64,000 bases of DNA from Gammaproteobacteria bacterium (GTDB lineage Bacteria; Pseudomonadota; Gammaproteobacteria; Eutrophobiales; Eutrophobiaceae), in the NCBI GenBank assembly GCA_965116495.1, contig OZ220696.1, positions 1,312,001 to 1,376,000 of the forward strand, written 5' to 3'. Under the pieces are notes generated by a model. That model made no database searches, was not told where the DNA came from, and was given only the letters and a program-made list of their open reading frames with translations. How positions within the stretch are numbered: the stretch's first letter is position 1; each line of letters opens with the position of its first letter. Below, one piece after another: positions 15,896 to 42,966 of this stretch. A program made the translations under genes and the position numbers.

Positions 15896-16026
15896 TTGCC
15901 TTCGCTCCCGTTTTCCCCTTCCTCCGGCTGTTCGCGGATGTGGATCGTCATGCGTGAAACGATCACGGCATTGACGATAATGACAATGATTATTCCCCAG
16001 TAGGGGAAGGCAGTCAGCAAATCCAT
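15892..16026 (-). CDS. Small single-TM protein (44 aa) coupled to the SSS gene; not in ORF track
   Basis: MDLLTAFPYWGIIIVIIVNAVIVSRMTIHIREQPEEGENGSEGK; its TGA overlaps the SSS GTG (GTGA). Confidence 0.65.
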   Translation of the reverse strand: MDLLTAFPYWGIIIVIIVNAVIVSRMTIHIREQPEEGENGSEGK

Positions 16027-17859: not shown

Positions 17860-18630
17860 TTAAGCCACTTCCCGTTGTTTCATCACCCCTGGAAAACCCG
17901 GCATGTCGTAGCCGGCCAGTCCCTTGATGTCCGGCAGGGGCCAGGTTCGCTTGCTGTGACTGAGACCGGTTTTTACCAGGGCGTCGGCGGTATGGACCGC
18001 TAACGGAATTGGATCAATCACAGGCACGTCCAGTCCCGCGTCCAGCAAGCCTCTGCGCATGGCCACCGCGCAGCCAAGGAAGCCGGTACAACCGAGGATT
18101 AACGCGTCTGCGCCCTCTTGCTGCACGGAAACTACGGCTTTTTCCGTTAATGCTTCGTTGAGTTTCGCCGGATCATGGCTGATGTCCAATACGGGTATGT
18201 CGATGGCCTGGAAGGAAGCATAATTAGCGTTGATCCCGTATTTTGACGCTATGTTGTCGATCAGGGGACGCAGGCGTCCCAGTACCGTGATAAAACCAAA
18301 ACGGTGCGCAAGCAGACTGGCCGTGTACATCGCAGTCTGGCAGGGCCCCAGCACCGGGATGGAGACGACCTCGCGGCAGGCGTCCAGTCCCGGGTCCCCC
18401 ATGCAGTCAATTACGATGGCGTGCGCGCCGTTCCGCTCCGCTTCTATGGCCTTTTTAATGGTATCCGGAATGCTCAGGGCCTCATCGAATTCGGATTCTA
18501 TTGACGCGGGACCTTTGTCCAGGATGGAATGCCGCACTTCAAGGTCCGGACGCTCCAGTTCCCTGACATCGTCAAGTTGCCGGATCCCTCTTGTTATAAT
18601 GGGCGTAATTATTTGAACGATGGTTTTCAT
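17860..18630 (-). CDS. Asp/Glu/hydantoin racemase family protein
   Basis: GPASIE, IDCMGDPG, ILGCTG, PVIDP. Confidence 0.9.
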   Translation of the reverse strand: MKTIVQIITPIITRGIRQLDDVRELERPDLEVRHSILDKGPASIESEFDEALSIPDTIKKAIEAERNGAHAIVIDCMGDPGLDACREVVSIPVLGPCQTAMYTASLLAHRFGFITVLGRLRPLIDNIASKYGINANYASFQAIDIPVLDISHDPAKLNEALTEKAVVSVQQEGADALILGCTGFLGCAVAMRRGLLDAGLDVPVIDPIPLAVHTADALVKTGLSHSKRTWPLPDIKGLAGYDMPGFPGVMKQREVA

Positions 18631-18642
18631 CGGGGGGTGCTC

Positions 18643-20793
18643 CTACCAGTTAAGATCCACACTGACGCCATAGGTGGCGGGCAGACCATAGTTTTCGCCG
18701 AAGCCAACCGTCGAGGTCAAGACCTGGGTGCGGTAGACCTCATCGGTGATATTCTTACCCCATAAATACACGCCCCATGCCCCATTGGCGGACTTTATGC
18801 CACCGCGAATATTGGACATCCAGTAACCGTCTTCACGTGCTTCCGGTGGCTGTCTTACGATATCGTAGATCACGTCGTCTTTATAAGCGGTATCAAACAT
18901 GATATCTGCGAGCAGGCTGCCGGTAAGGTTCCATTCGTAGCTGACAAGGGCATTAAAATTCAGTTCGGGTGCGTTCGGTAGTTTGCTGCCGGTTGCCACA
19001 TACGGATCGAGAATGGAAGCCGTGATTTCAGTGTCAAGTAATCCCAACCCCAAATGTATATCCAGACCTTCCGCCGCTTTCCATAACAGATCAAATTCCG
19101 CGCCATATACCTCGGCATCACCGGCATTGGTAATACCAAACAAAGGCCCGACCACGGGATTCTGATATATCGAGCCGTAAATCTGTACGCCTTTATAATC
19201 ATAGAAGAACGCGGAGACGTTGAATTGCAGACTGTTGTTCAACAGTTGCGTCTTGGCGCCGATTTCATAAGCCCAGACAATCTCTTTATCGAACCCGGCA
19301 AGGTCGGCGGGATTAAATGTGAGTTGCCCCTGGAAACTGCCTGATTTAAATCCCCGGCTGACGTTCGCATACAACAGGGCGTTTTCAAATCGCGTATAAT
19401 CGATGCCTATCTTGCCTGACAGGTTTGATACGTCGTAATCATTGCTGACAGGCGGAAAAGCCTGGCCCTCTATCCCCGTCCTTCCGAAATCGGCGAAAGT
19501 GAATGCGTCCTTGAATTCCTTGTTCTCGTCCGTGTAGCGTAGCCCGGCAATAAACTTCCAGTCCTCGTGCAACTGCCATTCGGCATGGCCGAACACGGCA
19601 TAGGAATCCGCATCCTGGCTATATTCATTACCGACGAAGGTAAAGGGGAAAGGCAGATCTGTGGTGTCGAAGATGTCCCGCGTCGATACCTCGTCGCGAC
19701 CGTAGAATGCACCGCCAATCAATACCAGGCGCGCGCCTGTGTAAGTCAGGCGCAATTCCTGCGACACCTGTTCTATCTCATTCAGGAACAGCCCGTCCAG
19801 GTGTACCAGGGCGGAGCCGTCCCGGTCCTCGTCATGGCTGCGCTCATAGTCTTCGTAGCCGGTGACGGAGGTCAGGGACAAGAGGTCGGACAGGTCCCAG
19901 TTGATGGTCAGCGATACCCCGTAGTTTTCATTATCCAGTTCCGTGTCATTCCCGGCGGCGGAACTGTACGGATCGGCAATGCCGTCGTCTTCGGGCGTGA
20001 ACAGGTTGTCCACCTTCACCAGCAGGGTGTCGGATTTATCGACGCCGCCATGTACGTTGAGCAGGATATCCAGATCTTCTGACAGCTGCCAGTTCAACAA
20101 GCCGCGCCAGGCGGTGCGATCAATCTCACCCACTTTATCACCGGTTGCCCGGTTTAATTGAAAACCGTCATTGCGCTGGGAAGTCTGTACCGCAACCCGG
20201 CCCATCAGACCTTCCGCTATCCGGCCACTCAACGCGCCTTCCAGGACAAAATGGTCGTAGCGGCCATAATCAGCGGACAGGTAACCTTCAAATTCATCCG
20301 TCGGTTTTCTGCTGATGAATTTCATGGCCCCGGCAGTGGTATTACGGCCGTACAGGGTGCCCTGTGGACCTTTCAGCACCTCGACGCGGTCCAGGTCAAA
20401 CAACTGGAAGCCGAGCATGGCGGGCGAGACCAGGTACACCTCGTCGATGTATATACCGGCTGCTGGGTTGTTGTTCACGGCATAGTCATTCAACCCGAGC
20501 CCGCGAATGCTGACGTTCGTGACGCTGTTGCCGAAGGTCTCGTTGATATTCAGGTTCGGCGTCTGCGCGGCAAGATCCACGGGCTGACCCAGGCGCTGTT
20601 CCCGGATCGCCGTGCCGGAGAAAACCGTTACAGCCACGCTGACATCGTTCAGGCTCTGTTCACGCTTTTGCGCGGTGACGATGATCTCCTCGATCTGCAA
20701 GCCGGAGGTCTGTGCCGCGAGATTGCCTACCCAGAATGATAAAATTGTCAGAATGATTACATTCACTATTGACTTGTCAGTTGATGTCTTCAT
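18643..20793 (-). CDS. TonB-dependent receptor
   Basis: IEEIIVTAQKREQ, VEVLKGPQGTLYGRNTTAG, C-terminal Trp. Confidence 0.95.
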   Translation of the reverse strand: MKTSTDKSIVNVIILTILSFWVGNLAAQTSGLQIEEIIVTAQKREQSLNDVSVAVTVFSGTAIREQRLGQPVDLAAQTPNLNINETFGNSVTNVSIRGLGLNDYAVNNNPAAGIYIDEVYLVSPAMLGFQLFDLDRVEVLKGPQGTLYGRNTTAGAMKFISRKPTDEFEGYLSADYGRYDHFVLEGALSGRIAEGLMGRVAVQTSQRNDGFQLNRATGDKVGEIDRTAWRGLLNWQLSEDLDILLNVHGGVDKSDTLLVKVDNLFTPEDDGIADPYSSAAGNDTELDNENYGVSLTINWDLSDLLSLTSVTGYEDYERSHDEDRDGSALVHLDGLFLNEIEQVSQELRLTYTGARLVLIGGAFYGRDEVSTRDIFDTTDLPFPFTFVGNEYSQDADSYAVFGHAEWQLHEDWKFIAGLRYTDENKEFKDAFTFADFGRTGIEGQAFPPVSNDYDVSNLSGKIGIDYTRFENALLYANVSRGFKSGSFQGQLTFNPADLAGFDKEIVWAYEIGAKTQLLNNSLQFNVSAFFYDYKGVQIYGSIYQNPVVGPLFGITNAGDAEVYGAEFDLLWKAAEGLDIHLGLGLLDTEITASILDPYVATGSKLPNAPELNFNALVSYEWNLTGSLLADIMFDTAYKDDVIYDIVRQPPEAREDGYWMSNIRGGIKSANGAWGVYLWGKNITDEVYRTQVLTSTVGFGENYGLPATYGVSVDLNW

Positions 20794-20864
20794 TTCAACC
20801 CTCCCCTTTCATAGGTGCACAACCGGTTATAAATTTTACTGTCCCATTGAACAATTACTTGCTT

Positions 20865-21983
20865 TTACAATTCTTCAACGGGAATGAATTCTTCTTCCAG
20901 GCCGAACGCCTGCGGCCCGAACACAGCCAGGGATTCGGGCCTCCTCATGATGGGCGCGGCGCTCGTTCCGATAACCTTGACCCGTTGACCGTATTTCAGG
21001 GCCTCGACCGTAACGGGCCGGACTGTCTCCCGGTCCACAATACAAATCAGATCCGGGACGACGGCAACTGTCTTTCCATCGACCCGGGCAACCAGGTTTT
21101 CGTTCTGAAATAACACAGTCATGCGTCGCGCGCTGCCATCCAACGCGGCAAGCTCACAGTGGCCCATGGAAAAACCACCGGTCGTTTCCCTCCTGAGGTC
21201 TGTGATTTTTCCATCAAATAACACTTTGCAGTGGTTGTAGTATTCAGTGGAGCGCAAATATTCAAGCAAGGCCTTGATTGGTTCGCCTTCTTTCCTGCCC
21301 TGGGACAGCGCGCGGCCAACGCCAAGCGCCAGAGTCAACGTTCCCTTTACCGCATACTGCTTTACCTGGCGTCCGTTCATGGGGTAACAGGAAATCATAA
21401 CGCTGAGCCCCATTTGGATAGCGGCTGCTCGAATTAAATCTTCCGCGCGCTTTCCATCATTCGTTTCAACAATAACAGTCTCCAGGTGTTCATCGACAAT
21501 CACCGCGGGGGTGGCAGGCACCCCATAGACGTGGAACGTGACCATCTGCAGTTCGGGGAAAGCTCGTCCCATTCCATCACAATTCACCAGGGGCAGACCC
21601 AGACGCGCCGCGGCAACGATGGGGATCATGGAATTAATTCCGCCGATTTCGATGGGGCAAATCGCGTCCGGTTGGCGGCCGATAAGTTGCGCAAGGCGCT
21701 TGATGGAATGGTCGATATCCTCACCTGATGCGGCCTTCTCTACCAGGACCGTCGGCGCGCCCAGCATGGCGGCCGGTAGTACACTCGCATCATCATCCAG
21801 TTCGCTGACTTCGACAATTTCCGGCGCTCCGTATTCCTCAATGGCATGCTTTGCCATTAACCGGCCGATATAAGGGTCGCCACCGCCGCCCGTTCCGAGA
21901 AACGCCGCTCCCTGGGCCAAATCATCCAGGTCCGCTGTGTTAATAAACAAGTTCCTGTCGGTTGTTTCTATGACATTCAGCAC
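20865..21983 (-). CDS. DUF917 family protein (S-methyl-thiohydantoin desulfurase-like fold)
   Basis: GAAFLGTGGGGDP, EIGGINS, DGMGRAFPE, FQNENL, VPDLI. Confidence 0.88.
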   Translation of the reverse strand: MLNVIETTDRNLFINTADLDDLAQGAAFLGTGGGGDPYIGRLMAKHAIEEYGAPEIVEVSELDDDASVLPAAMLGAPTVLVEKAASGEDIDHSIKRLAQLIGRQPDAICPIEIGGINSMIPIVAAARLGLPLVNCDGMGRAFPELQMVTFHVYGVPATPAVIVDEHLETVIVETNDGKRAEDLIRAAAIQMGLSVMISCYPMNGRQVKQYAVKGTLTLALGVGRALSQGRKEGEPIKALLEYLRSTEYYNHCKVLFDGKITDLRRETTGGFSMGHCELAALDGSARRMTVLFQNENLVARVDGKTVAVVPDLICIVDRETVRPVTVEALKYGQRVKVIGTSAAPIMRRPESLAVFGPQAFGLEEEFIPVEEL

Positions 21984-23524
21984 AGGCGCAACTCCCCCGC
22001 CGCTTTCGCGCGGATACGCACGGCGCTGCCCGGCATATAGGCTAGCGGCATCTCCTCGAAATCTATAATTTCAATGCTGTTTTCATCGGCTCCTGCATTC
22101 CTGGCCTGGTTGGCGGCTTCCGCTTGCGCGCCTTTTACGGCTTCCTCGCGGGTGACCTGTTCGTATGAATATACCTTGTTGATTTCCCCACCGACCTGGG
22201 CAATAGACGCCCCAATTGCATTCGCCACCTGCGCGTGCTGCGGGACGACCACTTCATTTGTCCCGGCAATATGTTCCCGGATCAGAATTGACCCGCCCCC
22301 GACCAGTATCAAGGGTAACGGTTGGGCGCTTGTCTTCATGCGGTCCACGCTTTCTTCCACTGTCCTGTGCATAGCGCTCGCCGTTTCCCGTACCAGGGAC
22401 TCGGGCAGGTTTGCAACCTCGCCGGGATTGCCGACTTCAACGAAACCTGCGGCAACGGCAATATCGGTAGCCGTCAGTTGTCTCCCACCGAACACCCGCG
22501 CTTGTTCCTCCAGGCGATAACCGACTGACCGGGGCCCAACCCTGACTTTTCCATTCTGGCTGACGAGGCTGCCGCCTCCCAACCCCACAGACAGGATATC
22601 CGGCATGCGAAAATTGGTGCGCACACTACCCACATCCATGGAAACACCGGATTCTCGCGGAAAACCATTGACCAGCACGCCGATATCGGTTGTGGTGCCG
22701 CCAATGTCCACAACCAACGCATCCTTGAGGCCGGACAGGTAGGCGGCGCCGCGAATACTGTTAGTCGGGCCGGAAGCGAAGGTCAAGACCGGATATTTCC
22801 CAACAAATTCGGCACTCATCAAGGTCCCGTCATTCTGACTGATATAAAATGGCGCGCTTATTTTGAGCCGCGCCAGAGCCCGTTCAAACGAAGCCACGAA
22901 TGTGGCGCTCAAACCGGTCAAACTCGCATTGATGATCGCAGCATTTTCCCGCTCCAGTAAACCGATTCGGCCGATACGGGATGATAAGGTCACGGACGCA
23001 TCTTCCAGCTCGTTCAACACGATTTCCCCGGCGCGCTCTTCCATTGCGCTGTTGACAGGCGAAAATACGCCACTGACTGCGACCGTCCGGATACCTTTTG
23101 TTTGCATGTCTTTTGCAGCGGAAGCAATCGCTTGTTCATCCAGCCTGGAAATCGGTCTCCCGTCGAACTCATATCCGCCCGCTACCATGTAGTGATGTTT
23201 TCCTATCACTGCAGCTATGTCATCGGGCCAGTCGACCATGGGCGGCACGCCGCGCGTGGCAGGCAGAGCCAGACGTATCACTCCCACTTCCTGTAAATGC
23301 TTGCGCTCGACAAAGGCGTTGGTGAAACGGGTGGTACCCATCATGACTGCCTGAATATCTCCCGTGGCAATCCGTGACATATTGAGCACATTCCTGACAG
23401 CAGCCATGATCCCCTCATCGACATTCTTGCCCGTAGGCGCCTTGTATACGGCCTTCACGTTATTGCCGTCCATCAACACGGCATCCGTATTCGTTCCTCC
23501 TACATCTACGCCTATTCTGATAAT
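21977..23524 (-). CDS. Hydantoinase/oxoprolinase N-terminal family protein; probable non-canonical ATT start
   Basis: IGVDVGGTNTDAVL lies upstream of the first canonical start (23479); GTTRFTNA, ERENAA, SGPTNS, DIGGTTTD. Confidence 0.85.
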   Translation of the reverse strand: MIRIGVDVGGTNTDAVLMDGNNVKAVYKAPTGKNVDEGIMAAVRNVLNMSRIATGDIQAVMMGTTRFTNAFVERKHLQEVGVIRLALPATRGVPPMVDWPDDIAAVIGKHHYMVAGGYEFDGRPISRLDEQAIASAAKDMQTKGIRTVAVSGVFSPVNSAMEERAGEIVLNELEDASVTLSSRIGRIGLLERENAAIINASLTGLSATFVASFERALARLKISAPFYISQNDGTLMSAEFVGKYPVLTFASGPTNSIRGAAYLSGLKDALVVDIGGTTTDIGVLVNGFPRESGVSMDVGSVRTNFRMPDILSVGLGGGSLVSQNGKVRVGPRSVGYRLEEQARVFGGRQLTATDIAVAAGFVEVGNPGEVANLPESLVRETASAMHRTVEESVDRMKTSAQPLPLILVGGGSILIREHIAGTNEVVVPQHAQVANAIGASIAQVGGEINKVYSYEQVTREEAVKGAQAEAANQARNAGADENSIEIIDFEEMPLAYMPGSAVRIRAKAAGELRLC

Positions 23525-23645
23525 TGCAATATCCTCCAGGTATCGGAACGCCGGGCATACCCGTCCTGCCGGGTTGGAATAGTTGTTCAGGTTAATCAGT
23601 TTTTACCTGGAATCACCCGTTCCGTGGTGTGGTTCCCCGGTTGAA

Positions 23646-23743
23646 TTGAGTAGTGCTACTGTTTACCTGCGAATCGGCTACCTGCACGAACGGGTAGGTT
23701 GTCAGCAAACTTTATTGACACGTCAAACACGTCAACATATTGT
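23646..23743. promoter_or_regulatory. Operator box plus sigma70-like promoter cassette, copy 1
   Basis: ttgagtagtg ... ctgcacgaacgggtag (23682-23697), then TTGACA (23715)-N17-TATTGT; same layout at 30938-31036. Confidence 0.6.
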
Positions 23744-23750
23744 TGCTTGC

Positions 23751-26495
23751 ATGAAGGAAAAACATGGGCCGGAAATCAATACCTTGTTCCCGGCTTGGCT
23801 TATGCGTTCCAAGGTGTACCCCACCCGGCAGCGTGTGGACGTGTTACAGAGACCGTCCCTGCTCAAGCAGCTCGATACTTGCCTGGACGCCACCTTATCA
23901 CTGGTCTGCGCCCCGGCAGGCTATGGCAAGAGCACACTCTATGCCGACTGGCGCAACAAGTTGTTACGGGATAACGTCAAGGCATGCTGGCTATCGCTGG
24001 AGCAGGATGACAACGACGCATTCCAACTTCTGACCTATATTGCCTACTCACTGTACGAGGGCGGCGTGGACTTTTCCGCAGCCGGGATAACGGAAAAAAT
24101 TCACTCCGGTGATCTCTCGGCACGCACGCTCCTGAACATCATACAGCGCGTGGTTGAAAGCGAAGAGCAGAAAACCGTGATCATCTTCGATGACTTTGAA
24201 AATCTCAACGAAGAGACAATCGACAGGGTAATCCAGCCGTTGCTGACCTATGCGCCGGCCAACCTGCACGTCGCCGTTGCAAGCAGGGACGACCGCCGCT
24301 TGAAGGTGGCCAAGCTGGAAATGGAAGGCCTGGCGTTGCGCCTGCCCGCAAGGAGTCTCTATTTTACGGTGGATGAACTCAGGCTGTTCTTCGAGGATTA
24401 CCTGCCCACAGAAACCATAGAGGAAATCCGGTGCCTGACGGAAGGCTGGCCTGTGGCCGTACAGATGCTCAGGAGTTCCGTGAAAGCCGACCGGGACATA
24501 GACCGTGTCCTGGTCAGTATGACCTCCTCCTCCAGCATCATTACCACCTACCTTTCAGAGCAGATCTTCAGTGGGCTGGACAGCAAGCTGCAAAACTTTT
24601 TGATGGACATCTCGTTGGTGGACGGGATGTCGTGTGAACTAGCGGATTACCTGCGTAAAGCCGATGACAGCGAAGCGCTGTTTGACGCCTGCCATACGCT
24701 GAGCGCCCTGGTTTCTCCTGTGGAACAGGTGAGAAACACCTGGCGCTTGCATCCCCTGTTCCGGGACTACCTGCAGCACAAGCTGTTGTTTGGCTGCCCG
24801 GAGCGTGCTTCAGCCCTGCACCTGCACGCGGCTGACTGGTTTGCCGGGAAAGGCAATCTCGTCCGGGCCGTGAGGCATGCGGTACAGGCAGGCAGACCCC
24901 GACGGGCAGTGGAAATTATCGAGCAACAGGGCGGCGTCATACTCTGGTTGCGGGAGGGACTGACGCGTCTGAGGACCGCCCTGGGTCTGCTGGATGAGAA
25001 CTCCATTTCCGCCTCACCCCGCATAACGGCCATCCGCTGTATCCTGGATATCAGGGAAGGCCAGGTTTACCAGGCTCGCAAACGCTACGACGTCATGCTG
25101 GAGCGCTACCGGGACACACGTGACGAGTTTGCTACGGCAGACCGGGAACGTATAGACCATGAGCTCATGCTGGTGGAATCGCTGCTGGCCTGCTACGAGG
25201 GAAAGATGCAGTCTGAGCAGTTCTGTACCCGCTTCACGCAGAACATTTCCCGGATTGACCGGAACGATCATGCAAGCCTCGGATACCACCATAATCTGCT
25301 TTGTTTTGCCTACGCGCAAAGAGGGATGCTTCGTGAAGCCAGGTACCATGCCGGGGAGTCAACAAGGGAATACCGGCTGCTTGGATCGTACTACGGTGAA
25401 GCCTACATTAATTTTCACCTGGGGGATATTTCGTTCGCAGAAGGAAACAGCGAACAGGCCAGAAGTAGTTACCAAGCCGGCCTGAACCTGTGCCGGCGGC
25501 ATTTTAATGATGATATGAGTATAAAGCTGCTCGCTAAAGTATTGATGGCAGAGCTGAATTACGAACTGAATCAACTACGGGGCATGTCCAACACGGCCGT
25601 TTCCATCGCAAGACAACTGGAAGAACGGGAAGCCTGGTTCGATATCTATGCGGCAGGTTACACCACCGCAAGCAACGTCGAATTTGCAAGGTATGGTATC
25701 GATGCTGCAGATGCAATCCTGACCCGAGCCCTGAGCTATGCCGGGAGACAAAAGCTGGAACGTTTAATCAACCTGCTGTTATTCCAGCGTATTGACCTGT
25801 TGTTGCGCGCCAACCTGGACGAGGAGGCACAGCGCACCTTCAGAGACTCGGGACTACGGCTGGAAATCTACAGAAACCCAGGCCAGAGCGATATTGCCTG
25901 GCGCGAGCGCCACGCCGCAGTACACGCGATTATCCTGTTGCAGCTCAGGCAAAAAAACTTTGAAGAAGCCCTGGCTGCGCTCGGTTGTTTCTCAAGCCAT
26001 GCCCAATCCAGCGGCCACCTGAAACCGAATCTGAGGTATGAAATATTAAAGAGTATGGCTTATCGGGGGAAAAACGATTATGCATCGGCATTCAAACACC
26101 TGGGCCAGGCTTTATCGTTGTCCGTGAGTTCCGGTTTTGTCCGATCGTTCATCGATGCTGGCAGTGAATTACAGGAGATCCTGCAACTGTATATGCACTC
26201 GTCGGAATACACAGCTTCGCCAACCGGCTACAGGCAACAGGCGGAAAAAATAGCGGCGTACTTCATTGACGCCGACAAAATGGAAAGCACAGAAGAATTG
26301 CTGAGCAGGAGAGAGAGCGAAGTGTTGAAATATCTGGCTCAGGGCATGTCCAACAAGCTGATCGCCAGAAACATCTGCATTTCGGAAAACACGGTCCGGT
26401 TCCACTTGAAAAATATCTTTTCCAAGCTCCAGGTCAATAACCGGCTGCTTGCGGTTTCCGTTGCCCGCAAAAGAAAGTTAATTCAACTCGCATAA
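23751..26495 (+). CDS. MalT-like ATP-dependent LuxR-family regulator
   Basis: APAGYGKS Walker A, WLSLEQDDN, TEGWPVA, C-terminal LSRRESEVL..GMSNKLIA..ENTVRFHLKNIFSKL. Confidence 0.92.
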   Translation: MKEKHGPEINTLFPAWLMRSKVYPTRQRVDVLQRPSLLKQLDTCLDATLSLVCAPAGYGKSTLYADWRNKLLRDNVKACWLSLEQDDNDAFQLLTYIAYSLYEGGVDFSAAGITEKIHSGDLSARTLLNIIQRVVESEEQKTVIIFDDFENLNEETIDRVIQPLLTYAPANLHVAVASRDDRRLKVAKLEMEGLALRLPARSLYFTVDELRLFFEDYLPTETIEEIRCLTEGWPVAVQMLRSSVKADRDIDRVLVSMTSSSSIITTYLSEQIFSGLDSKLQNFLMDISLVDGMSCELADYLRKADDSEALFDACHTLSALVSPVEQVRNTWRLHPLFRDYLQHKLLFGCPERASALHLHAADWFAGKGNLVRAVRHAVQAGRPRRAVEIIEQQGGVILWLREGLTRLRTALGLLDENSISASPRITAIRCILDIREGQVYQARKRYDVMLERYRDTRDEFATADRERIDHELMLVESLLACYEGKMQSEQFCTRFTQNISRIDRNDHASLGYHHNLLCFAYAQRGMLREARYHAGESTREYRLLGSYYGEAYINFHLGDISFAEGNSEQARSSYQAGLNLCRRHFNDDMSIKLLAKVLMAELNYELNQLRGMSNTAVSIARQLEEREAWFDIYAAGYTTASNVEFARYGIDAADAILTRALSYAGRQKLERLINLLLFQRIDLLLRANLDEEAQRTFRDSGLRLEIYRNPGQSDIAWRERHAAVHAIILLQLRQKNFEEALAALGCFSSHAQSSGHLKPNLRYEILKSMAYRGKNDYASAFKHLGQALSLSVSSGFVRSFIDAGSELQEILQLYMHSSEYTASPTGYRQQAEKIAAYFIDADKMESTEELLSRRESEVLKYLAQGMSNKLIARNICISENTVRFHLKNIFSKLQVNNRLLAVSVARKRKLIQLA

Positions 26496-26497
26496 GC

Positions 26498-27529
26498 CTA
26501 CTTCCACACCTGCTCAGCGATGCGAAGCAAGTTTCTGCCAAGTACCTTCTGGATGTCGTTCTCTGTATAGGCTCGATTCAGCAAACACTGTGTGAGTCGA
26601 GGAAGGTTTTCTGGCATAACCACCTCAATGGGAACATCATAACCTGCCGCCCTGGGGAAAGTTTTTGTCATCTTCCTGGTGACTTCGGCTATTTCCGTAT
26701 CATCGAAAATGTAATCAAGTCCAATACCCACATGGTCGATACCACCAAGTTGCACAATGTAATCGATATGGTCGGCAATACTTTCGACGTCTGCACTACC
26801 TGAGCCCAGGAAAATGTTCACGCCATTGATGCCTATAACACCACCTTTTTGAGTGCAGGCCGTTATCAACTCATCCGGAATATTACGGTCATGTTTTTTG
26901 AGGGCAAGGGCATTTGAATGTGAAAAAATGACAGGTTGGCGACTATACTGCATAGCTTCCATTGCGGTTCGATAGCCGGTATGACTCAAACAGACAACCA
27001 TCCCTGCTTCATTCATTTCATCAATAAGTTCCTTCCCTTCCGCTGTGAGTCCCGTATCAGGTTCATGACAGCCGCCTCCTGCCCAATTCCGGCGGTTATA
27101 CGCTAACAGCATCCAGCGAACCCCCAGGTCATATAACATCGGGATCAGGCTGATCTGCCGTTGCAAGGGAGCCGCTCCCTCCAGGTCGAAGGTCACAGCC
27201 AATTTACCTGTGGCATGCGCGAGTTCTATATCCTCAACCGCTTCAACCCTCAGATAATCGTCTGGACGCGCCCCAATCCAGTCCCGCATTTGTGCAAGAA
27301 CGCGTATACAAGCTTCCAGTCCGATTTCCCCGTAACCGACATTGATACTGACTACGTCAACACCGGCATCCCGGTAACGCTGTAATTGTGGAATAAATTC
27401 CAGGTTTTTACCCGAATCCAAGGGGAGGCACCCATGGTTATCCCATACTATGGAACGGTTGTGCAGCGCTTCCGCCTCTTGCGAAACATGCCAGTTACGT
27501 TTCCTTTCCTTTGAGTATTTCCCATTCAT
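26498..27529 (-). CDS. Membrane dipeptidase family (peptidase M19)
   Basis: WDNHG, DLEG, LSH, FSHSN, RNIPD, HVGIGLD. Confidence 0.9.
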   Translation of the reverse strand: MNGKYSKERKRNWHVSQEAEALHNRSIVWDNHGCLPLDSGKNLEFIPQLQRYRDAGVDVVSINVGYGEIGLEACIRVLAQMRDWIGARPDDYLRVEAVEDIELAHATGKLAVTFDLEGAAPLQRQISLIPMLYDLGVRWMLLAYNRRNWAGGGCHEPDTGLTAEGKELIDEMNEAGMVVCLSHTGYRTAMEAMQYSRQPVIFSHSNALALKKHDRNIPDELITACTQKGGVIGINGVNIFLGSGSADVESIADHIDYIVQLGGIDHVGIGLDYIFDDTEIAEVTRKMTKTFPRAAGYDVPIEVVMPENLPRLTQCLLNRAYTENDIQKVLGRNLLRIAEQVWK

Positions 27530-27535
27530 AAACTC

Positions 27536-28666
27536 TCAACCTCCAACCCAAAGCGATAGTGAGACGCCGATAAAATTGGCAATCACATATCCCAGGATAC
27601 CGCAGAGCAGGCCGGGAGTAACCAGGCTGTGCCACTTGTGGTGAGCTGCCAGCGCCGCAGCGGGCGCCGGCCCCAGAATACAGGCATTCGACGCGGTGAT
27701 TAATTCAGCGTAATTAAACCGGCACAGCTTCCCGACAGTTAATGCGACGAGAGCATGAACCAAACAAATGGCGGCTGCATAAACCATCAAAACAGGACCG
27801 AACGTAAACAATATTGATATATCGGCACCGGCCCCGACCACGACGAAAAAGACATACATCAAAAACATCCCGATTTCAAAATCGCCGCGTACCGCGCCCA
27901 ATTGGCGCGGTATTACATTGGCTGTCAAGACAGCGAACAAGGTAATGAATAACAAGGAAAAGCGGGGCATGGAAAAATATTGCGCAATAAAAAAACTGAA
28001 CCAGCAGATTCCTGAAGCCAGTGCTATAACAAGCGTGATGCCGAACCACGCGGAGTGTTTGCCGTTATGGCGCGACCCTTCGGTATTCAGCGGCGCAGAG
28101 GAAACAGACAAATCCGACTGCGCAGGAAACTGCTGCGTAAACCATGTCGATGCGGCCGTTAATGCCAATAAGACCAGGTACCCCGTGCCGACTATCGCCT
28201 CAGAAGCAAGCGCCGCGGACAACAGCCCTGCATCATTTAATTCCAGCGCCTGTGAGACGGCGACGAAGTTCATCGACCCACCGGTATAGGTTGCGATGAA
28301 CACCCCAAGTAGTTTGTCCGCTTCCGCGCCAAGGGGTAACAGGAGAAATCCGCCGACCGCCCCCAAAACCGTGCCTGATACACAAACCAGAAAAACAAAA
28401 CCCAATCCGCCCGTATGGGTAACTACCTGACGCATGTTTGCCTTGAATAACAATAATGCAACGGCGAACGGCACAAGATAAACAACGATGATTTCATAAA
28501 CGCGGGAAACGTGCGGCAGCAGACCGAAATTTGAGAACATCGCCCCCGTGATCAAGGCAATCACTGCCGCGGAAACCCTTCTGCCAAAGTCGAAGCGCCC
28601 ACACCATAGCGCGAAGACTACAATCAGCAGGATTTGCGCGCTAACCAGCGCGTCGGCAAAAATCAG
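27536..28666 (-). CDS. DUF819 family membrane protein; probable CTG start overlapping the TBDR stop
   Basis: ATYTGGSMNFVAV, ASNACILGP, GILGYVIANFIG; first TM helix lies upstream of the track start 28564. Confidence 0.8.
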   Translation of the reverse strand: MIFADALVSAQILLIVVFALWCGRFDFGRRVSAAVIALITGAMFSNFGLLPHVSRVYEIIVVYLVPFAVALLLFKANMRQVVTHTGGLGFVFLVCVSGTVLGAVGGFLLLPLGAEADKLLGVFIATYTGGSMNFVAVSQALELNDAGLLSAALASEAIVGTGYLVLLALTAASTWFTQQFPAQSDLSVSSAPLNTEGSRHNGKHSAWFGITLVIALASGICWFSFFIAQYFSMPRFSLLFITLFAVLTANVIPRQLGAVRGDFEIGMFLMYVFFVVVGAGADISILFTFGPVLMVYAAAICLVHALVALTVGKLCRFNYAELITASNACILGPAPAAALAAHHKWHSLVTPGLLCGILGYVIANFIGVSLSLWVGG

Positions 28667-30867
28667 AACTTTCCTTTCAAGGTGACGCCAAGGGTACGGG
28701 GACGCGTGGTATTAATCCGGACATCACCGACAATACGGTTAAAATACAGGACAGCCCTTTCGTCCCAGAGATTATCCGCAAAGAAGGCGAGCTGCCACTT
28801 GTCTGTCTCAACTCCCAGGCGCAAATTCCCAAGCTGGTATGGCTTCTGGCGGTCCGCGCCGGCGCCGCTCGTGCCCGTTGCCGCGGCAAATCCGTTGTAG
28901 GAACTGCCGACATGCTGAAAGTTAAAATTGACAAAGCCGTCAATGCCCTCAAAGATTGACGACCGTTGGTAGTTAAATCCTGCGGTGAAAGTAACTTCGG
29001 GCACACCGGGAATACGATCACCCGAACGCCCGTCTCCCGGCGGAAGCTGGTCGTCGGTAAGTTCACTGTTGACATAAGCGGCCGTACTGAAGATTTCAAA
29101 ATCTGCCAATGCAAATGGCAGGGCGCGCAATTCCAACTCGGCGCCCACACTTCTTGCGCCTCCTGCATTTATCGTAAAGGTATGACCATCACTTCGTATA
29201 AAGTTGGTCTGGATATCAGTCCAGTCTATATAGAACCCGGCGCCGTTAAAAACAAGTCTGTTGTTCCCCCAACTGGTCTTGAAACCCGCTTCAAAATTCC
29301 ATAGGGAATCCGAATCAAACTGGGATGGCGCCGGCTCGCCGGTAACCGGGTCAGCAGGCACCCCTTGCCCTGTGGGGCCGCCCTCGCGAAAGCCCTTGGA
29401 AGCCACGCCATAAACGAGAATTTGGTCGTTAACATCGTAAGACAACCGGAATTTCGGACTGACGCCACTTTCATCCGCCCCCGAATAAATGGTCTCAAGC
29501 ATACCCGGACGCCCCGCCAGCAATCCGCCGCTGAGATCAACCACGTCCTGTTCAATATCGAACCAGCGCGCGCCTGCGGTTGCAGTCAACTTGTGAGTTA
29601 TATTGAAATCTAACTCGCCGAATACTGCAATTTGTTTACGGTCAAGCGTCGTATCGGAATCAAGAACGTCTCCGCCCAGCGCCTCAGCCCCGGCATCCTG
29701 GATAAATATTTCCTCATCGTCCCGGTAATACACACCCAGCACCCAATCCAGGTACCCCCCGAATAATCCTTTGTTTGAAGTCAAACGAACTTCCTGCACC
29801 CAGGATTCAAACTCGGTTAAATCATCCAGAAAAATCGGCAGGCCGCCCAGCAAGGGCGATATATCGCGCAGGTTGATGACCTCCCTGTCAAAGTAAGCCG
29901 TTGACGAACTTAAAGTTGCGTTTCCCAGGTCCCAATCCAGGGTCAGGTTTGCCAGGTGAAATTCATCGGCAAGCTCTTCTTGAAAATTACGCGCCTGTTT
30001 CAGATCTCCCAGATCAGGATCATACTGGGCTTTCCCCGGCGTGTCCGAATCCTGGTACAAATATGAAAATGCAGCGGAAATGTCTTCATTGAAATCAAGG
30101 GTTACCATGCCCCGGAAGCCTACAGTTTCCGTCTCGTTTACATTATTCTCATCGAGCGTTACATTATCTACAAAGCCCGAGGCTTCATCTTGGTAAGCCA
30201 CCAGTCTTAACCCGAGTTTATCTCTTACTACCGGCACATTTACCACACCTGCAAGCTCGTAATTTGTGCCTCCTTTTTCCGTTGACCCCAGGCTCGAATT
30301 AAATTCAACGCTGAAATTTTCCAGGTCGGGTTTATTCGGAACGTAACGCAAGGTTCCGCCAATGGAACCCTCGCCGAATAAAGTCCCCTGCGGACCCCGC
30401 AACACTTCTATGCGCTCGATGTCAAAAAGGCGCAGGTCAGGACTGAAGCGCCGGCTTCCAACCGGCACATCATCAAAATACATTCCTATCACCGCGCCTT
30501 CATCGCGGGAAGCAACGCCGGTGGATACACCGCGCAGGACAATCTTGTTTTCCGGGCTGTTATTGCCTACATAAGAAAGTCCGGGGACACTTGCCGCAAA
30601 ATCAGCAAATGATCGAGCGCCGATATTTTCCAGGTATTCCTGAGAAAGGGCGGTAACCGCAACAGGGGCATCCTGCAAAGCTTCCGTCCTTCTCCTGGCA
30701 GTCACCTCGATTTCCTCAAGGACCAATACGCCTTCCTCCCCCGACAGAACTTCCGCTTGTGCCTGGATGATGCGGGGTGATGCAAAAAACAGGGCCATAA
30801 TGAGAGCAGCAGCAATGAACACTTCATTGGCAAGAGGGTATTTCATAACTGAAACCCGTGTAATCAT
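28663..30867 (-). CDS. TonB-dependent receptor
   Basis: LEEIEVTARRR, IEVLRGPQGTLFGEGSIGG, C-terminal Phe. Confidence 0.95.
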   Translation of the reverse strand: MITRVSVMKYPLANEVFIAAALIMALFFASPRIIQAQAEVLSGEEGVLVLEEIEVTARRRTEALQDAPVAVTALSQEYLENIGARSFADFAASVPGLSYVGNNSPENKIVLRGVSTGVASRDEGAVIGMYFDDVPVGSRRFSPDLRLFDIERIEVLRGPQGTLFGEGSIGGTLRYVPNKPDLENFSVEFNSSLGSTEKGGTNYELAGVVNVPVVRDKLGLRLVAYQDEASGFVDNVTLDENNVNETETVGFRGMVTLDFNEDISAAFSYLYQDSDTPGKAQYDPDLGDLKQARNFQEELADEFHLANLTLDWDLGNATLSSSTAYFDREVINLRDISPLLGGLPIFLDDLTEFESWVQEVRLTSNKGLFGGYLDWVLGVYYRDDEEIFIQDAGAEALGGDVLDSDTTLDRKQIAVFGELDFNITHKLTATAGARWFDIEQDVVDLSGGLLAGRPGMLETIYSGADESGVSPKFRLSYDVNDQILVYGVASKGFREGGPTGQGVPADPVTGEPAPSQFDSDSLWNFEAGFKTSWGNNRLVFNGAGFYIDWTDIQTNFIRSDGHTFTINAGGARSVGAELELRALPFALADFEIFSTAAYVNSELTDDQLPPGDGRSGDRIPGVPEVTFTAGFNYQRSSIFEGIDGFVNFNFQHVGSSYNGFAAATGTSGAGADRQKPYQLGNLRLGVETDKWQLAFFADNLWDERAVLYFNRIVGDVRINTTRPRTLGVTLKGKF

Positions 30868-30937
30868 TAGAATTCCTCATTTGGATTAAAGTACCTCGTG
30901 CACAATAGCTGAACGCCTGGTGTGGTTTTCTTTTCTT

Positions 30938-31036
30938 TTGAGTAGTGTCTTCTTTCCCGCCTTTTTTTACCTGTCTACCCGAATGGGTAGTCTCCGGCCA
31001 CCTGATATTGACACACCACATGGGCCACTTTAATGT
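30938..31036. promoter_or_regulatory. Operator box plus sigma70-like promoter cassette, copy 2
   Basis: ttgagtagtg ... palindrome ctacccgaatgggtag (30975-30990), then TTGACA (31008)-N17-TAATGT. Confidence 0.6.
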
Positions 31037-31141: not shown

Positions 31142-31627
31142 TCATCCGGTGAAGTCTCTTAATGAACGGAGCGGCAGTTCTGTCGTGCACTTGATTTCGG
31201 ACACCACCATCTTGGAGTGCACCTCGCGTACTGCCGGCAGTGACAGCAGGTGGCGCAGGAAGCGTTCGTAAGCGTGGATATCCGTTGCCACCACTTTCAA
31301 CAAAAAATCCATCTCTCCCAGCACCGTGTAACATTCCAGCACTTCCGGCAGTTTCTCCACGGCATTCTGGAAATTAGGCAGTGCTTCATGGCCATGGGCC
31401 TCGAGCTTGACTTCAGCGAACACGATCACGTCCAGGCCCAGTTGGTTATGGTCCAGTAGCGCCACCCGTTTTTTCAACACCCCGGCGTCCTCCATACGTT
31501 TGAGCCTGCGCCAGCAGGGTGAGGTGGACAGGCCGATTTGCGCCGCCAGTTCGCTGACGGTCAAACCGGCATCCCGTTGCAGGACGGTCAGTATTTTCTT
31601 GTCGAATTTATCTATCTTAACGGTCAT
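31142..31627 (-). CDS. Lrp/AsnC-family regulator divergent from bkd operon (BkdR-like)
   Basis: DKFDKKILTVLQRDA..GLSTSPCWRRLKRME, GEMDFLLKV. Confidence 0.9.
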   Translation of the reverse strand: MTVKIDKFDKKILTVLQRDAGLTVSELAAQIGLSTSPCWRRLKRMEDAGVLKKRVALLDHNQLGLDVIVFAEVKLEAHGHEALPNFQNAVEKLPEVLECYTVLGEMDFLLKVVATDIHAYERFLRHLLSLPAVREVHSKMVVSEIKCTTELPLRSLRDFTG

Positions 31628-31750
31628 TTTTGCCTAATTTATATATTATATGGGTAATATTTTGCGAATTATCCTGAATTCCGGTTACAAAAGCAATAAT
31701 TATCCCTTTATTTCCGTCTAAACTGTATCCAACCACTTCCAGTGATTGAT

Positions 31751-32971
31751 ATGTCAAGCAAATTACATATTCCGGCAGCACCGTACCGTCCGGGCGAAGA
31801 GCCGGATTTCAGCGCAATATCACTGTCTCGGGCCGGCGAACTGGTGCGTCCGGACGAACTGGCCCCGGCCAACTCAATAGATAAACTGGCCTTCGGCATG
31901 CTGCGCGTCCTGGATGACAACCACCAGGCTGTCGGTCCCTGGGATCCTGGTTTATCGGCAGACATATTGCGTGATGGATTGCGCCACATGATGCTGACGC
32001 GCCTGTATGACGAACGCATGTTCAGGATGCAGCGCCAGGGCAAGCTGACCTTCTACCTGAAATGCACCGGCGAAGAAGCCGTATCGGTCGCCCAGTGTAT
32101 GGCGCTGGATGACGGCGACATGCTGTTTCCCACGTACCGGCAGCAGGGCTTGCTGATCACGCGGGGCTATCCATTGCTGGATATGATGTGCCAGTGCCTG
32201 TCCAATTCCGGCGACAAATTACAGGGCCGCCAATTGCCTGTGTTGTACAGTTCGAATGTACATAACTTTTTTACCATTTCCGGCAACCTGGGCACCCAGT
32301 TTTCCCAGGCCGTAGGTTGGGCTATGGCGGCTGAATACAGAAAAACAGGCGATATCGCGGTGGCCTGGGTCGGCGAGGGGACCAGCGCGGAGGCGGATTT
32401 CCACTATGCCCTCACCTTCAGTGCCGTGTACCGCGCTCCGGTGATACTGAACGTGGTAAACAACCAGTGGGCAATTTCCACGCACCAGAATGTCGCGGGC
32501 GGCGACCAGAACCCGTTTGCCGCCCGCGGCATCGGTTACGGGATTCCCGGCCTGCGCGTGGACGGGAATGATTTTCTCGCCGTTTTCGCCGCCACCCGCT
32601 GGGCTGCACGCCGGGCCCGCGCCGGCGGGGGCCCTACCCTGATAGAGCTGTATACCTATCGCGTCGCGCCCCATTCAACCAGCGATGATCCGGGCAGGTA
32701 CCGGCCTGCCGACGAATGGGAACACTGGCCCCTTGGCGATCCCGTAGAGCGCCTGAAACAGCACTTGATCAGCCTGGATGTATGGTCCGAAGCGGAACAC
32801 GAACAGATGCAGATGGAACTGGAAGAAACGGTGAACAGTACCTGGGAGAAGGCAATCTCGCTGGGAACACTGGATGAGGGGCCGCACCCCCCAGTCTCGG
32901 CAATGTTCGAACATGTCTACAAGGAAGTGCCGCCTCATCTCGAGGAACAACGCCGGCAACTGGAGGGGTGA
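31751..32971 (+). CDS. bkdA1: Branched-chain 2-oxoacid dehydrogenase E1 alpha
   Basis: YRPGEEPDFS, QRQGK, GEGT...NNQWAIST, HSTSDDP. Confidence 0.92.
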   Translation: MSSKLHIPAAPYRPGEEPDFSAISLSRAGELVRPDELAPANSIDKLAFGMLRVLDDNHQAVGPWDPGLSADILRDGLRHMMLTRLYDERMFRMQRQGKLTFYLKCTGEEAVSVAQCMALDDGDMLFPTYRQQGLLITRGYPLLDMMCQCLSNSGDKLQGRQLPVLYSSNVHNFFTISGNLGTQFSQAVGWAMAAEYRKTGDIAVAWVGEGTSAEADFHYALTFSAVYRAPVILNVVNNQWAISTHQNVAGGDQNPFAARGIGYGIPGLRVDGNDFLAVFAATRWAARRARAGGGPTLIELYTYRVAPHSTSDDPGRYRPADEWEHWPLGDPVERLKQHLISLDVWSEAEHEQMQMELEETVNSTWEKAISLGTLDEGPHPPVSAMFEHVYKEVPPHLEEQRRQLEG

Positions 32972-32972
32972 A

Positions 32973-34139: not shown

Positions 34140-34141
34140 AC

Positions 34142-42185: not shown

Positions 42186-42818
42186 TCAGTCCGGAAATTT
42201 GAGTGATTTCACGTAGCGCCAGGTGCGGTTTCCGCCTGACTGGCGCCGTAGTGCAAGCAAATCGTCCGGACGGTCAATATCCCGGGCCAGTCCGCCGGAT
42301 CTGGCGATATTGACGGTGACCTGCCGTTTTTCCGCTTCTTTACGGAATTTATCAAAGCTGTTCTCGCCATACATCAAGCCGATGGACAGCGGCGGCGTCA
42401 ACACCAGGCCGTTGGTGCCGCCATCGTTACCGGCAGGACATAAAGTGACGCCCCCTGCATGTTCCCGGTCCAGGTAAGCCAGGTCTGTTTCATCAAGTTC
42501 AGGCACGTCGGCAGGGATGACGATCACCTTGTCGATGCCTTTATCACTGATGACATCAACGCCTTTCAGCACATCGGAGGCATACCCATGGTCGACCCCG
42601 GTGTTCAACACGTGCGCGCGGTAGTCCCGCGCCATCAAGATAGCAGCTTCATCGCAACTGATTACCGTGACGCCGTCGATCACGGCAGTTCTATCCAGGG
42701 CATCAAGTATGTCTTCCAGCATACACAGACTGAGTTGCCGGCGTTGCGCGGGCGTCATTACGCGGGCAAGGCGCAATTTGGCGTGCTCCAGCCGTTTTAC
42801 AGGGAGTAGCGCCCACAT
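42186..42818 (-). CDS. cofC: 2-phospho-L-lactate/3-phosphoglycerate guanylyltransferase (F420 biosynthesis)
   Basis: MWALLPVKRLEHAKLRL, IPADVP, DGGTNGL, YGENSF, DIDRPDDL. Confidence 0.88.
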   Translation of the reverse strand: MWALLPVKRLEHAKLRLARVMTPAQRRQLSLCMLEDILDALDRTAVIDGVTVISCDEAAILMARDYRAHVLNTGVDHGYASDVLKGVDVISDKGIDKVIVIPADVPELDETDLAYLDREHAGGVTLCPAGNDGGTNGLVLTPPLSIGLMYGENSFDKFRKEAEKRQVTVNIARSGGLARDIDRPDDLLALRRQSGGNRTWRYVKSLKFPD

Positions 42819-42827
42819 GTCAAAAAT

Positions 42828-42963: not shown

Positions 42964-42966
42964 CCT

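What the first reader, a model, noticed from the sequence alone, without database searches (positions are those of the whole stretch)
17860..31036. Two-operon catabolic regulon around a MalT-like regulator with two TonB receptors
Seen: operon A (hydantoinase/oxoprolinase, DUF917, TBDR, hydantoin racemase) and operon B (TBDR, DUF819, M19 dipeptidase) flank a single MalT-like gene and share upstream DNA boxes. Known: hydantoinase-A/DUF917 pairs usually come with an NCS1 permease, and a DUF917 member acts as S-methyl-thiohydantoin desulfurase in ergothioneine catabolism. No NCS1 is present here. Inference: an undescribed pathway importing and opening a cyclic amide, (thio)hydantoin or cyclic dipeptide, with DUF819 as inner-membrane carrier.
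Basis: partly seen in the sequence, partly recalled or inferred. Interest (0 to 1): 0.7.

Follow-up and report, generated by a model that had tools for sequence, protein, structure and literature searches.

The report
Ring-opening regulon with optional dipeptidase operon
Two import-and-breakdown operons in an uncultured bacterium carry the same spaced DNA boxes and are likely switched on by the one regulator gene between them. The common operon is predicted to open a small ring-shaped amide using ATP, and the rarer one would cut the opened product, which points to cyclic dipeptides as the likely but untested food.

Summary
All eight genes and the shared upstream boxes are real. Both promoters have three elements at fixed spacing. 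That pattern occurs exactly twice in the 4.34-Mb genome, and in 23 relatives only in front of these two operons, so co-regulation by the MalT-like gene is likely. The eight genes are not one fixed unit. Regulator plus operon A is conserved in 12 genomes of the genus; operon B is found in only 4 of them. DUF819 therefore cannot be the obligatory carrier. The DUF917 is not an ergothioneine-type desulfurase: it scores far below both cut-offs, sits in another clade and differs at key residues. It groups with DUF917 proteins that pair with, or in eukaryotes fuse to, a short hydantoinase-A ATPase, and likely replaces the usual B subunit. The regulon has a dipeptidase and racemase but no N-carbamoylase, which favours a cyclic dipeptide over a hydantoin (about 40% against 20%); no substrate was tested. 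hyuA and DUF819 appear to start at ATT codons. The scan has already reported the HyuA-DUF917 pair and the five-gene core on other DNA. New here: the operator layout, the dipeptidase add-on and the ATT starts.

The parts
17860..18630 (-). Hydantoin/allantoin-type racemase, last gene of operon A; both catalytic cysteines present (C76, C181)
   Evidence: PF01177; best PDB hit 3qvj, E 6e-31, cysteines aligned
18643..20793 (-). TonB-dependent receptor A (716 aa)
   Evidence: PF00593+PF07715; 79-96% identical in 11 orthologous loci, 55-61% in distant five-gene units
20865..21983 (-). DUF917 protein of the HyuA-linked group; likely hydrolytic subunit; its GTG start overlaps the hyuA stop
   Evidence: PF06032/PF20906; tree and residue table; model pLDDT 92, only clear fold match 2o3i, Z 42.9
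21977..23524 (-). Short hydantoinase/oxoprolinase A-type ATPase (515 aa), likely ATT start 7 nt after GGAGGA
   Evidence: PF05378+PF01968; N-methylhydantoinase 7hk5, E 1e-26; one relative has ATG at the same position
23626..23697 (-). Operon A promoter: operator-like imperfect palindrome 23697-23682, CTACTCAA box 23653-23646, -10-like element 23634-23626
23715..23743 (+). Sigma-70-type promoter-like site (TTGACA-17-TATTGT) facing the regulator gene, next to the operator
   Evidence: 10 of 12 matches; -35 kept in relatives; consensus match only
23751..26495 (+). MalT/AlkS-like large ATP-binding LuxR regulator (914 aa from ATG 23751); the only full-length one found in this genome
   Evidence: PF17874, PF00196, AAA; NF003420 254 of 537 bits; self hit only; one PF17874 match over cut-off
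26498..27529 (-). M19 (renal-dipeptidase-like) metallo-amidohydrolase, no signal or membrane segment seen, H-G-C motif
   Evidence: PF01244 E 4e-80; PDB 2i5g, 3id7; H32, C34, E117, H183, H204, D272 invariant in 6 rows; hydropathy
27536..28663 (-). DUF819 membrane protein, about 10 hydrophobic segments, likely ATT start overlapping the receptor's TGA stop (TGATT)
   Evidence: PF05684; hydropathy; junction identical in 5 related loci
28663..30867 (-). TonB-dependent receptor B (734 aa), about 26% identical to receptor A
   Evidence: PF00593+PF07715
30919..30990 (-). Operon B promoter: perfect palindrome CTACCC-N4-GGGTAG 30990-30975, CTACTCAA 30945-30938, -10-like element 30927-30919
31006..31013 (+). 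Likely relic -35 element (TATTGACA) matching the regulator's own promoter; lost or decayed in 2 of 3 relatives

Best explanation
The MalT-like protein likely activates both operons through the shared spaced boxes, and the pathway is predicted to import a small chiral cyclic amide, most likely a cyclic dipeptide, open it with an ATP-driven HyuA-DUF917 enzyme and cut the product with the M19 dipeptidase. Shown: gene content, box layout and conservation, and the patchy spread of operon B. Inferred steps: (1) the ligand-bound regulator binds the CTACCC palindrome and a second half-site four helical turns downstream, overlapping the -35 position; (2) receptor A brings the compound across the outer membrane; (3) it crosses the inner membrane by a carrier that differs between strains, or by diffusion; (4) HyuA phosphorylates the lactim oxygen, and DUF917, standing in for HyuB, hydrolyses the activated carbon; (5) the two-cysteine racemase inverts an alpha-carbon so both stereoisomers are used; (6) where operon B is present, a second receptor, DUF819 and M19 take up and split the linear (possibly D-residue-containing) dipeptide, while other strains would rely on peptidases encoded elsewhere. 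Confidence by layer: co-regulation about 0.85; HyuA-DUF917 as one ATP-driven ring-opening enzyme about 0.7; cyclic dipeptide as substrate about 0.4.
For: Regulon: 2 hits in the genome. In 23 relatives the pattern gave 13 hits in 10 genomes, 10 before operon A and 3 before operon B, none elsewhere, with 0 for the reversed control. Spacing of 44-45 and 13-14 bp is kept while spacer letters differ. The genome has one full MalT-like gene. Enzyme pair: hyuA and DUF917 overlap; 67 of 74 long DUF917 relatives are HyuA-DUF917 fusions from animals, fungi and algae. A natural algal fusion folds at pTM 0.87 across a disordered 58-residue linker. Nucleotide-binding motifs are nearly invariant in 107 HyuA rows. 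The A-phosphorylates, B-hydrolyses mechanism is stated in PMC6061476 (passages). Peptide product: M19 shares the boxes. A 51-55% paralogue of this M19 sits beside canonical HyuA(/HyuB) genes in this genome and 9 relatives, beside an Xaa-Pro-dipeptidase-like gene in 9 of these 10, and a 38% paralogue does so at a further locus. The second HyuA-DUF917 locus of this genome also has an Xaa-Pro-dipeptidase-like gene. Other DUF917 loci have peptide-type ABC or OPT importers (3 of the 19 non-genus loci whose neighbours were scanned). DUF917 and racemases are enriched beside cyclodipeptide oxidases (bioRxiv 2023.09.25.559410, section 5). Neither N-carbamoylase-family gene of the genome is in the regulon.
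Against: No enzyme assay exists. Operon B is missing from 8 of 12 orthologous loci, so the dipeptidase is not required. The 9 M19 paralogue loci are orthologues and count as about one event. The genome has two N-carbamoylase-family genes elsewhere, so a hydantoin route could finish in trans. Sister loci at 65-69% DUF917 identity carry NCS1 and a MOSC/ferredoxin reductase instead, which suggests nucleobase-like rings and shows the family has several substrates. M19 membership does not fix a dipeptide substrate, and the H-x-C motif departs from the H-x-D that I recall for renal dipeptidases. The fusion model is of an algal protein and has no control. Operon B's promoter looks like a copy of the regulator-hyuA intergenic region, so part of the likeness is shared descent.
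Confidence: 0.4

Rival explanations
1. The core is a hydantoin (or other cyclic ureide) utilisation unit: HyuA-DUF917 opens one enantiomer of a 5-substituted hydantoin, the racemase feeds the other in, and a carbamoylase elsewhere finishes. Operon B handles a co-occurring compound under the same regulator.
For: Racemase's closest solved relatives are hydantoin and allantoin racemases. HyuA's best hit is N-methylhydantoinase. NCS1 lies beside 8 of 12 more distant loci. Two TIGR01879 genes are in the genome. The core occurs without operon B in 8 of 12 loci and in Lentisalinibacter.
Against: No carbamoylase carries the boxes or lies in any orthologous locus. The only co-regulated downstream hydrolase is M19-type.
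Confidence: 0.2
2. The substrate is another nitrogen heterocycle or lactam (for example a modified base or an alkaloid fragment), and M19 acts as a general amidohydrolase on the opened product.
For: Paralogous loci carry molybdenum hydroxylases, luciferase-like oxygenases, NicX-like proteins or a MOSC reductase. The genome has 21 long HyuA and 23 HyuB matches and about 50 related receptors, so it targets many rings.
Against: The 12 orthologous loci have no conserved oxidative enzyme. A two-cysteine racemase implies an amino-acid-like alpha-carbon.
Confidence: 0.22
3. DUF917 removes sulfur from a thiohydantoin or other cyclic thione, with or without ATP, as in ergothioneine catabolism.
For: Same fold family as the characterised desulfurases (NCBIfam E 1e-32 and 1e-26).
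Against: 113 of 450 and 93 of 440 bits, against 591-604 bits for five true members. True members form their own clade (support 99) with Q, V and S where this protein has E112, D136 and E181. They lie beside urocanase-like or histidine-ammonia-lyase-like genes, which this locus lacks and the genome has once each.
Confidence: 0.1
4. The operons are not a functional regulon: operon B arrived with a copied intergenic region, and its boxes persist by descent only.
For: A relic -35 of the regulator's promoter sits upstream of operon B. Operon B is patchy and has lower G+C (0.513 against 0.549). A paralogous receptor-DUF819-M19 unit sits under an ECF sigma/FecR pair instead.
Against: In the most diverged relative (about 90% DNA identity) the three boxes and their spacing are kept while spacers and the relic -35 have changed; another relative deleted the relic but kept the boxes.
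Confidence: 0.08

Closest known systems
ATP-dependent HyuA/HyuB lactam and ureide hydrolases (N-methylhydantoinase PDB 7hk5, 5-oxoprolinase 6yra, caprolactamase CapAB)
   Same: A-type ATPase subunit with intact nucleotide-binding motifs; predicted phosphorylation of the lactim followed by hydrolysis (PMC6061476, passages).
   Different: A subunit is 515 aa, not about 680. No HyuB in the regulon; DUF917, an unrelated fold (only match 2o3i), takes its place. CapA model score 92 of 1000 bits.
Classical hydantoin utilisation (hyu) clusters: NCS1 permease, hydantoinase, racemase, N-carbamoylase (recalled)
   Same: Hydantoinase-family ATPase plus a two-cysteine hydantoin racemase in one operon.
   Different: No NCS1 and no carbamoylase in the regulon; TonB receptors, a MalT-like activator and an optional DUF819-M19 module instead.
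Thiohydantoin and S-methyl-thiohydantoin desulfurases of ergothioneine catabolism (NF058529, NF058532)
   Same: DUF917 fold, with the GGGG, RAxP and NE..PD motifs shared.
   Different: Below cut-offs, different clade, different residues at 112, 136 and 181, and no ergothionase or thiourocanate hydratase context; partnered with an ATPase.
AlkS/MalT-type large ATP-binding LuxR activators
   Same: AAA-TPR-LuxR architecture; an inverted-repeat operator next to the -35 region, as described for AlkS (PMC8784404, passages; the operator letters were not in the held text).
   Different: Below the MalT equivalog cut-off (254 of 537 bits). Operator layout is a palindrome plus a half-site 44 bp downstream; ligand unknown.
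Non-CDPS cyclodipeptide-oxidase clusters (bioRxiv 2023.09.25.559410, section 5)
   Same: DUF917, hydantoin racemases, peptidases and importers occur together; function unassigned.
   Different: No cyclodipeptide oxidase was recognised here, and that section mentions no HyuA partner or TonB receptor.

Membership tests
Thiohydantoin / S-methyl-thiohydantoin desulfurase | Score above NCBIfam cut-off (440 / 450 bits) | tested here: not met
   92.6 and 112.8 bits; five positive controls 591-604
Thiohydantoin / S-methyl-thiohydantoin desulfurase | Same clade and residues as the ergothioneine-linked enzymes | tested here: not met
   Separate clade; E112/D136/E181 against Q/V/S (quick tree; no S-methyl-type member was in the tree)
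Thiohydantoin / S-methyl-thiohydantoin desulfurase | Neighbouring ergothionase and thiourocanate hydratase genes | tested here: not met
   None in the locus; one urocanase-family and one lyase-family gene in the genome, adjacent, far away
HyuA/HyuB ATP-dependent lactam hydrolase | A subunit with nucleotide-binding motifs | tested here: met
   PF05378+PF01968; DVGGT, DIGGTT and GGGS conserved
HyuA/HyuB ATP-dependent lactam hydrolase | HyuB (PF02538) partner in the operon | tested here: not met
   No PF02538 among the eight genes; DUF917 overlaps hyuA instead
HyuA/HyuB ATP-dependent lactam hydrolase | ATP-dependent ring opening | not testable with these tools
   Needs an assay
Classical hyu hydantoin cluster | Two-cysteine hydantoin racemase | tested here: met
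   C76 and C181 align with those of 3qvj
Classical hyu hydantoin cluster | N-carbamoylase and NCS1 permease in the cluster | tested here: not met
   Both families occur only elsewhere in the genome
MalT/AlkS-like large ATP-binding LuxR regulators | N-terminal P-loop domain, TPR region, C-terminal LuxR helix-turn-helix, about 900 aa | tested here: met
   (APAGYGKST, IIFDD)
MalT/AlkS-like large ATP-binding LuxR regulators | Binds the repeat next to -35 and activates | not testable with these tools
   Boxes conserved and confined to these promoters; binding not measured
M19 dipeptidase | PF01244 match and metal-site residues | tested here: inconclusive
   270 bits; H32, E117, H183, H204, D272 present, but C34 stands where I recall an aspartate
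M19 dipeptidase | Hydrolyses dipeptides | not testable with these tools
   Needs an assay

The most novel reading that the evidence does not exclude
This regulon is a complete, inducible pathway for eating cyclic dipeptides, and HyuA-DUF917 is a new class of ATP-driven diketopiperazine hydrolase. The same enzyme exists as a single fused protein in marine invertebrates, fungi and algae. DUF819 would be a dipeptide carrier, and ATT starts would hold the ATPase and the carrier at low levels.
Probability: 0.3. Interest if true: 0.75.

Novelty: new variant of a known kind. Interest (0 to 1): 0.45.

Why it matters
HyuA-DUF917 is a widespread enzyme pair, fused in many animals, fungi and algae, and I found no paper that assigns it a reaction (searches; subscription journals are mostly outside the library). 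Little is known about how cyclic dipeptides are degraded (PMC3852281, abstract). This locus makes both questions easier to test. It supplies a single regulator with a sharply defined operator, so a reporter screen can find the inducer. It also supplies a co-regulated peptidase whose substrate would identify the ring-opened product. As a gene cluster it is otherwise an ordinary kind of catabolic unit, one of many in this genome.

Tried and rejected
Eight-gene synteny as a fixed unit: rejected. DUF819 as obligatory carrier: rejected on distribution. The sodium:solute symporter at 14363-15895 as the core's carrier: unresolved. It follows the racemase in 6 of 12 loci, about 200 bp away in one, but it is broken in two of those. 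It also occurs in genomes without this locus. A wider regulon: none found in this genome or in 23 relatives (the exact pattern missed two known operon-A sites with substitutions). Expression: two metatranscriptome runs from one study hold contigs of related strains over parts of both operons and the regulator; contigs cannot show level, strand or co-expression, so this is not counted. Complex prediction of the window's HyuA with DUF917 was not available, so direct binding is untested. Fold searches gave only the uncharacterised 2o3i. DUF819 neighbours at 27 loci across the phylum were mixed (60 of 75 flanking frames scanned): many housekeeping genes, plus S9 peptidases, CstA, Asp/Glu racemases, an enolase-family epimerase and one HyuB-HyuA pair; this is a weak hint only. 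Distant metagenome DUF819 loci examined lacked M19 or receptors. The careful tree did not finish; the quick tree is quoted, and the 41-row HyuA-linked group has support of only 81. No paper on the ergothioneine desulfurases was in the library; their role rests on NCBIfam names and recall. A search for M19 specificity returned nothing useful. Supplements were not consulted; those of the bioRxiv paper are closed and may list relevant clusters.
Full report
Setting. The window lies in a 4.34-Mb single-contig genome. Its genus relatives are titled uncultured Gammaproteobacteria. The genome is rich in this chemistry: 21 long hydantoinase-A and 23 hydantoinase-B matches and about 50 related TonB receptors.

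Observation. All eight genes are present with the families named. Operon A (hyuA, DUF917, receptor A, racemase) is divergent from the regulator. Operon B (receptor B, DUF819, M19) is on the same strand as A and ends 2 bp from the regulator's stop. hyuA's conserved N-terminus lies upstream of the tool's start, and no ATG, GTG or TTG is in frame before the next stop. An ATT sits 7 nt after GGAGGA. Among 11 orthologous loci, six have ATT there, one has ATC, one has ATG at the same position, and three use an ATG one codon on. DUF819 likewise appears to start at ATT in a TGATT overlap with the receptor's stop, identical in five related loci, none with ATG, so this second start is less certain.

Promoter boxes. 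The two upstream regions share, in order and spacing, a CTACCC palindrome, a CTACTCAA half-site 44-45 bp on, and a (C/T)ACAC(C/T) element 13-14 bp further. If the last is the -10, the half-site overlaps -35 and the palindrome is four turns upstream, a layout typical of activators (inference). The composite pattern occurs twice in the genome; it was derived from these sites, so the informative part is the absence of others. A matrix trained on relatives' operon-A regions alone (13 of 16 usable) puts operon B's site at 39.3 bits; the best unrelated site has 24.4 and three locally shuffled genomes reach 20.2-27.4. With distant loci only (4 of 6 usable) it scores 29.1 against 26.1 and 23.6-27.4. 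In 23 relatives the pattern gave 13 hits in 10 genomes, all before operon A (10) or B (3), control 0. CTACCC half-sites also precede hyuA in distant loci whose regulators are only 24-28% identical, including Lentisalinibacter, so the motif follows this regulator family. This genome has one full-length member. Upstream of B is a copy of the -35 that drives the regulator in region A; it has decayed or been deleted in 2 of 3 relatives while the boxes stayed. I read this as a copied intergenic region whose operator is kept by selection. AlkS, a MalT-family activator, uses an inverted repeat beside -35 (PMC8784404, passages).

Synteny. DUF917 matched 17 of 22 other genus genomes. Twelve genomes including this one have the orthologous unit (regulator at least 71%, DUF917 at least 74%, receptor A at least 79%). 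The racemase follows in 9; one contig ends early and two loci have a truncated receptor. DUF819 was found in 3 of 22 and the close M19 in the same three. So operon B is in 4 of 12: adjacent here and in G008, about 7 kb further off in G005, on a separate 5-kb contig in G016. G022, 98% identical in hyuA and DUF917, runs from the regulator straight into lrp. The eight genomes without it are 96-100% complete. The five-gene core recurs in three Lentisalinibacter species and one Pseudomonadales genome without operon B. None of the 12 orthologous loci has NCS1, but 8 of 12 more distant MalT-linked loci do. A sodium:solute symporter follows the racemase in 6 of 12 but also occurs without the locus. 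No inner-membrane carrier is constant.

The enzyme. DUF917 scores 93 of 440 and 113 of 450 bits on the desulfurase models. A phylum sample of 401 genomes gave 16 with the family. Five loci there lie beside urocanase-like or histidine-ammonia-lyase-like genes and score 591-604. In a 54-row quick tree they form their own clade, while the window's protein falls in a 41-row group (support 81), 39 of whose rows are beside or fused to a HyuA. The groups differ at E112, D136 and E181; several stand-alone DUF917 proteins outside the ergothioneine clade keep these residues too. Among 74 long relatives, 67 are HyuA-DUF917 fusions in the same order as the operon, from molluscs, echinoderms, lancelets, Trichoplax, fungi and algae. 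One natural fusion folds with pTM 0.87 over 968 residues despite a disordered linker, consistent with docked domains; there was no control. HyuA is 515 aa, keeps its nucleotide motifs and is closest to N-methylhydantoinase among solved structures. In that family A phosphorylates the lactim and B hydrolyses it (PMC6061476, passages). DUF917 has no fold match but 2o3i. The desulfurases, as I recall, add water at an activated C(=N)-X carbon, which is the step HyuB performs; DUF917 replacing HyuB is therefore chemically sensible but inferred.

Substrate. The racemase keeps both cysteines, pointing to an amino-acid-like centre. A hydantoin would give an N-carbamoyl amino acid; the genome's two carbamoylase-family genes are outside the regulon. 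A cyclic dipeptide would give a linear dipeptide, and the co-regulated hydrolase is M19-type. A 51-55% paralogue of this M19 lies beside canonical HyuA(/HyuB) genes in this genome and 9 relatives, and a 38% paralogue does so at another locus; these are few independent events. In G008 operon B continues with another racemase and a PhzF-family isomerase, and in another family DUF819 directly precedes hyuB-hyuA with a PhzF gene nearby. DUF917 and racemases are enriched near cyclodipeptide oxidases (bioRxiv 2023.09.25.559410, section 5). PMC6061476 suggests many annotated oxoprolinases may be cyclic dipeptide hydrolases. Against this: operon B is optional, sister loci carry NCS1 and a MOSC reductase, and other paralogues carry hydroxylases and NicX-like proteins. 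I put cyclic dipeptide at about 0.4, hydantoin 0.2, another ring 0.22, thione 0.1 and no true regulon 0.08.

What is known. Searches for DUF917 gave 4 listed papers (listings and abstract starts, one read in part), none assigning the pair a reaction in what I saw. DUF819 gave 10 (listings, passages of PMC12671195 read, where it pairs with an M15 peptidase). PMC3852281 (abstract and passages) states that little is known of diketopiperazine degradation. The start-codon search was seen as a listing only. Earlier notes of this scan describe the same five-gene core and, in 24 findings, the HyuA-DUF917 pair; I had reached those readings before looking.

Verdict. A real, likely co-regulated catabolic regulon made of a conserved core and an accessory operon. 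It is a new variant of ATP-dependent lactam catabolism with an unassigned enzyme pair. Interest 0.45.

Noticed in passing
window 14363-16026 (-): Sodium:solute symporter preceded by an overlapping 44-aa membrane peptide ORF (15892-16026). It follows the racemase in 6 of 12 orthologous loci; here a 1.6-kb insert with a PIN toxin gene and an Hjc-like gene separates them.
   Followed up: partly
G000:C1:258000-275000 (L057, L058): Second HyuA-DUF917 locus (46% and 38% identical) with several racemases, two NicX-like proteins, a luciferase-like oxygenase, an Xaa-Pro-dipeptidase-like gene, two MFS carriers, a receptor, a TPR-sulfotransferase and a 2-oxoglutarate oxygenase; conserved in at least 6 relatives and not under these boxes.
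   Followed up: partly
G000:C1:4132000-4137500 (L059): Paralogous receptor-DUF819-M19 unit under an ECF sigma/FecR pair; its M19 is 96% identical over 127 aa and then breaks off. In G005 the same unit is intact and sits between operon B and the regulator.
   Followed up: partly
G000:C1:333000-353000 (L060): Conserved cluster of two canonical HyuA/HyuB pairs, two receptors, an M19 paralogue, an Xaa-Pro-dipeptidase-like gene, MFS carriers and a sulfatase; a second candidate for cyclic-peptide catabolism.
   Followed up: partly
L037, L039, L040, L041: Sister loci with hyuA-DUF917-receptor followed by a MOSC-FAD-NAD-2Fe2S fusion and NCS1, suggesting an N-oxidised or N-hydroxylated heterocycle as substrate.
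   Followed up: no
L081 (G004:C1:2512001-2532000): Regulator, boxes and receptor A remain but hyuA and DUF917 are deleted after the hyuA start.
   Followed up: no
window 31142-35662: Lrp regulator and branched-chain 2-oxo-acid dehydrogenase operon; the usual chromosomal neighbour of the locus in relatives, with operon B inserted or lost between it and the regulator.
   Followed up: partly
P0007: A 954-aa protein fusing HyuB to DUF917.
   Followed up: no
window 42186-43644: CofC-like and F420-dependent NADP oxidoreductase genes in a gammaproteobacterial genome.
   Followed up: no
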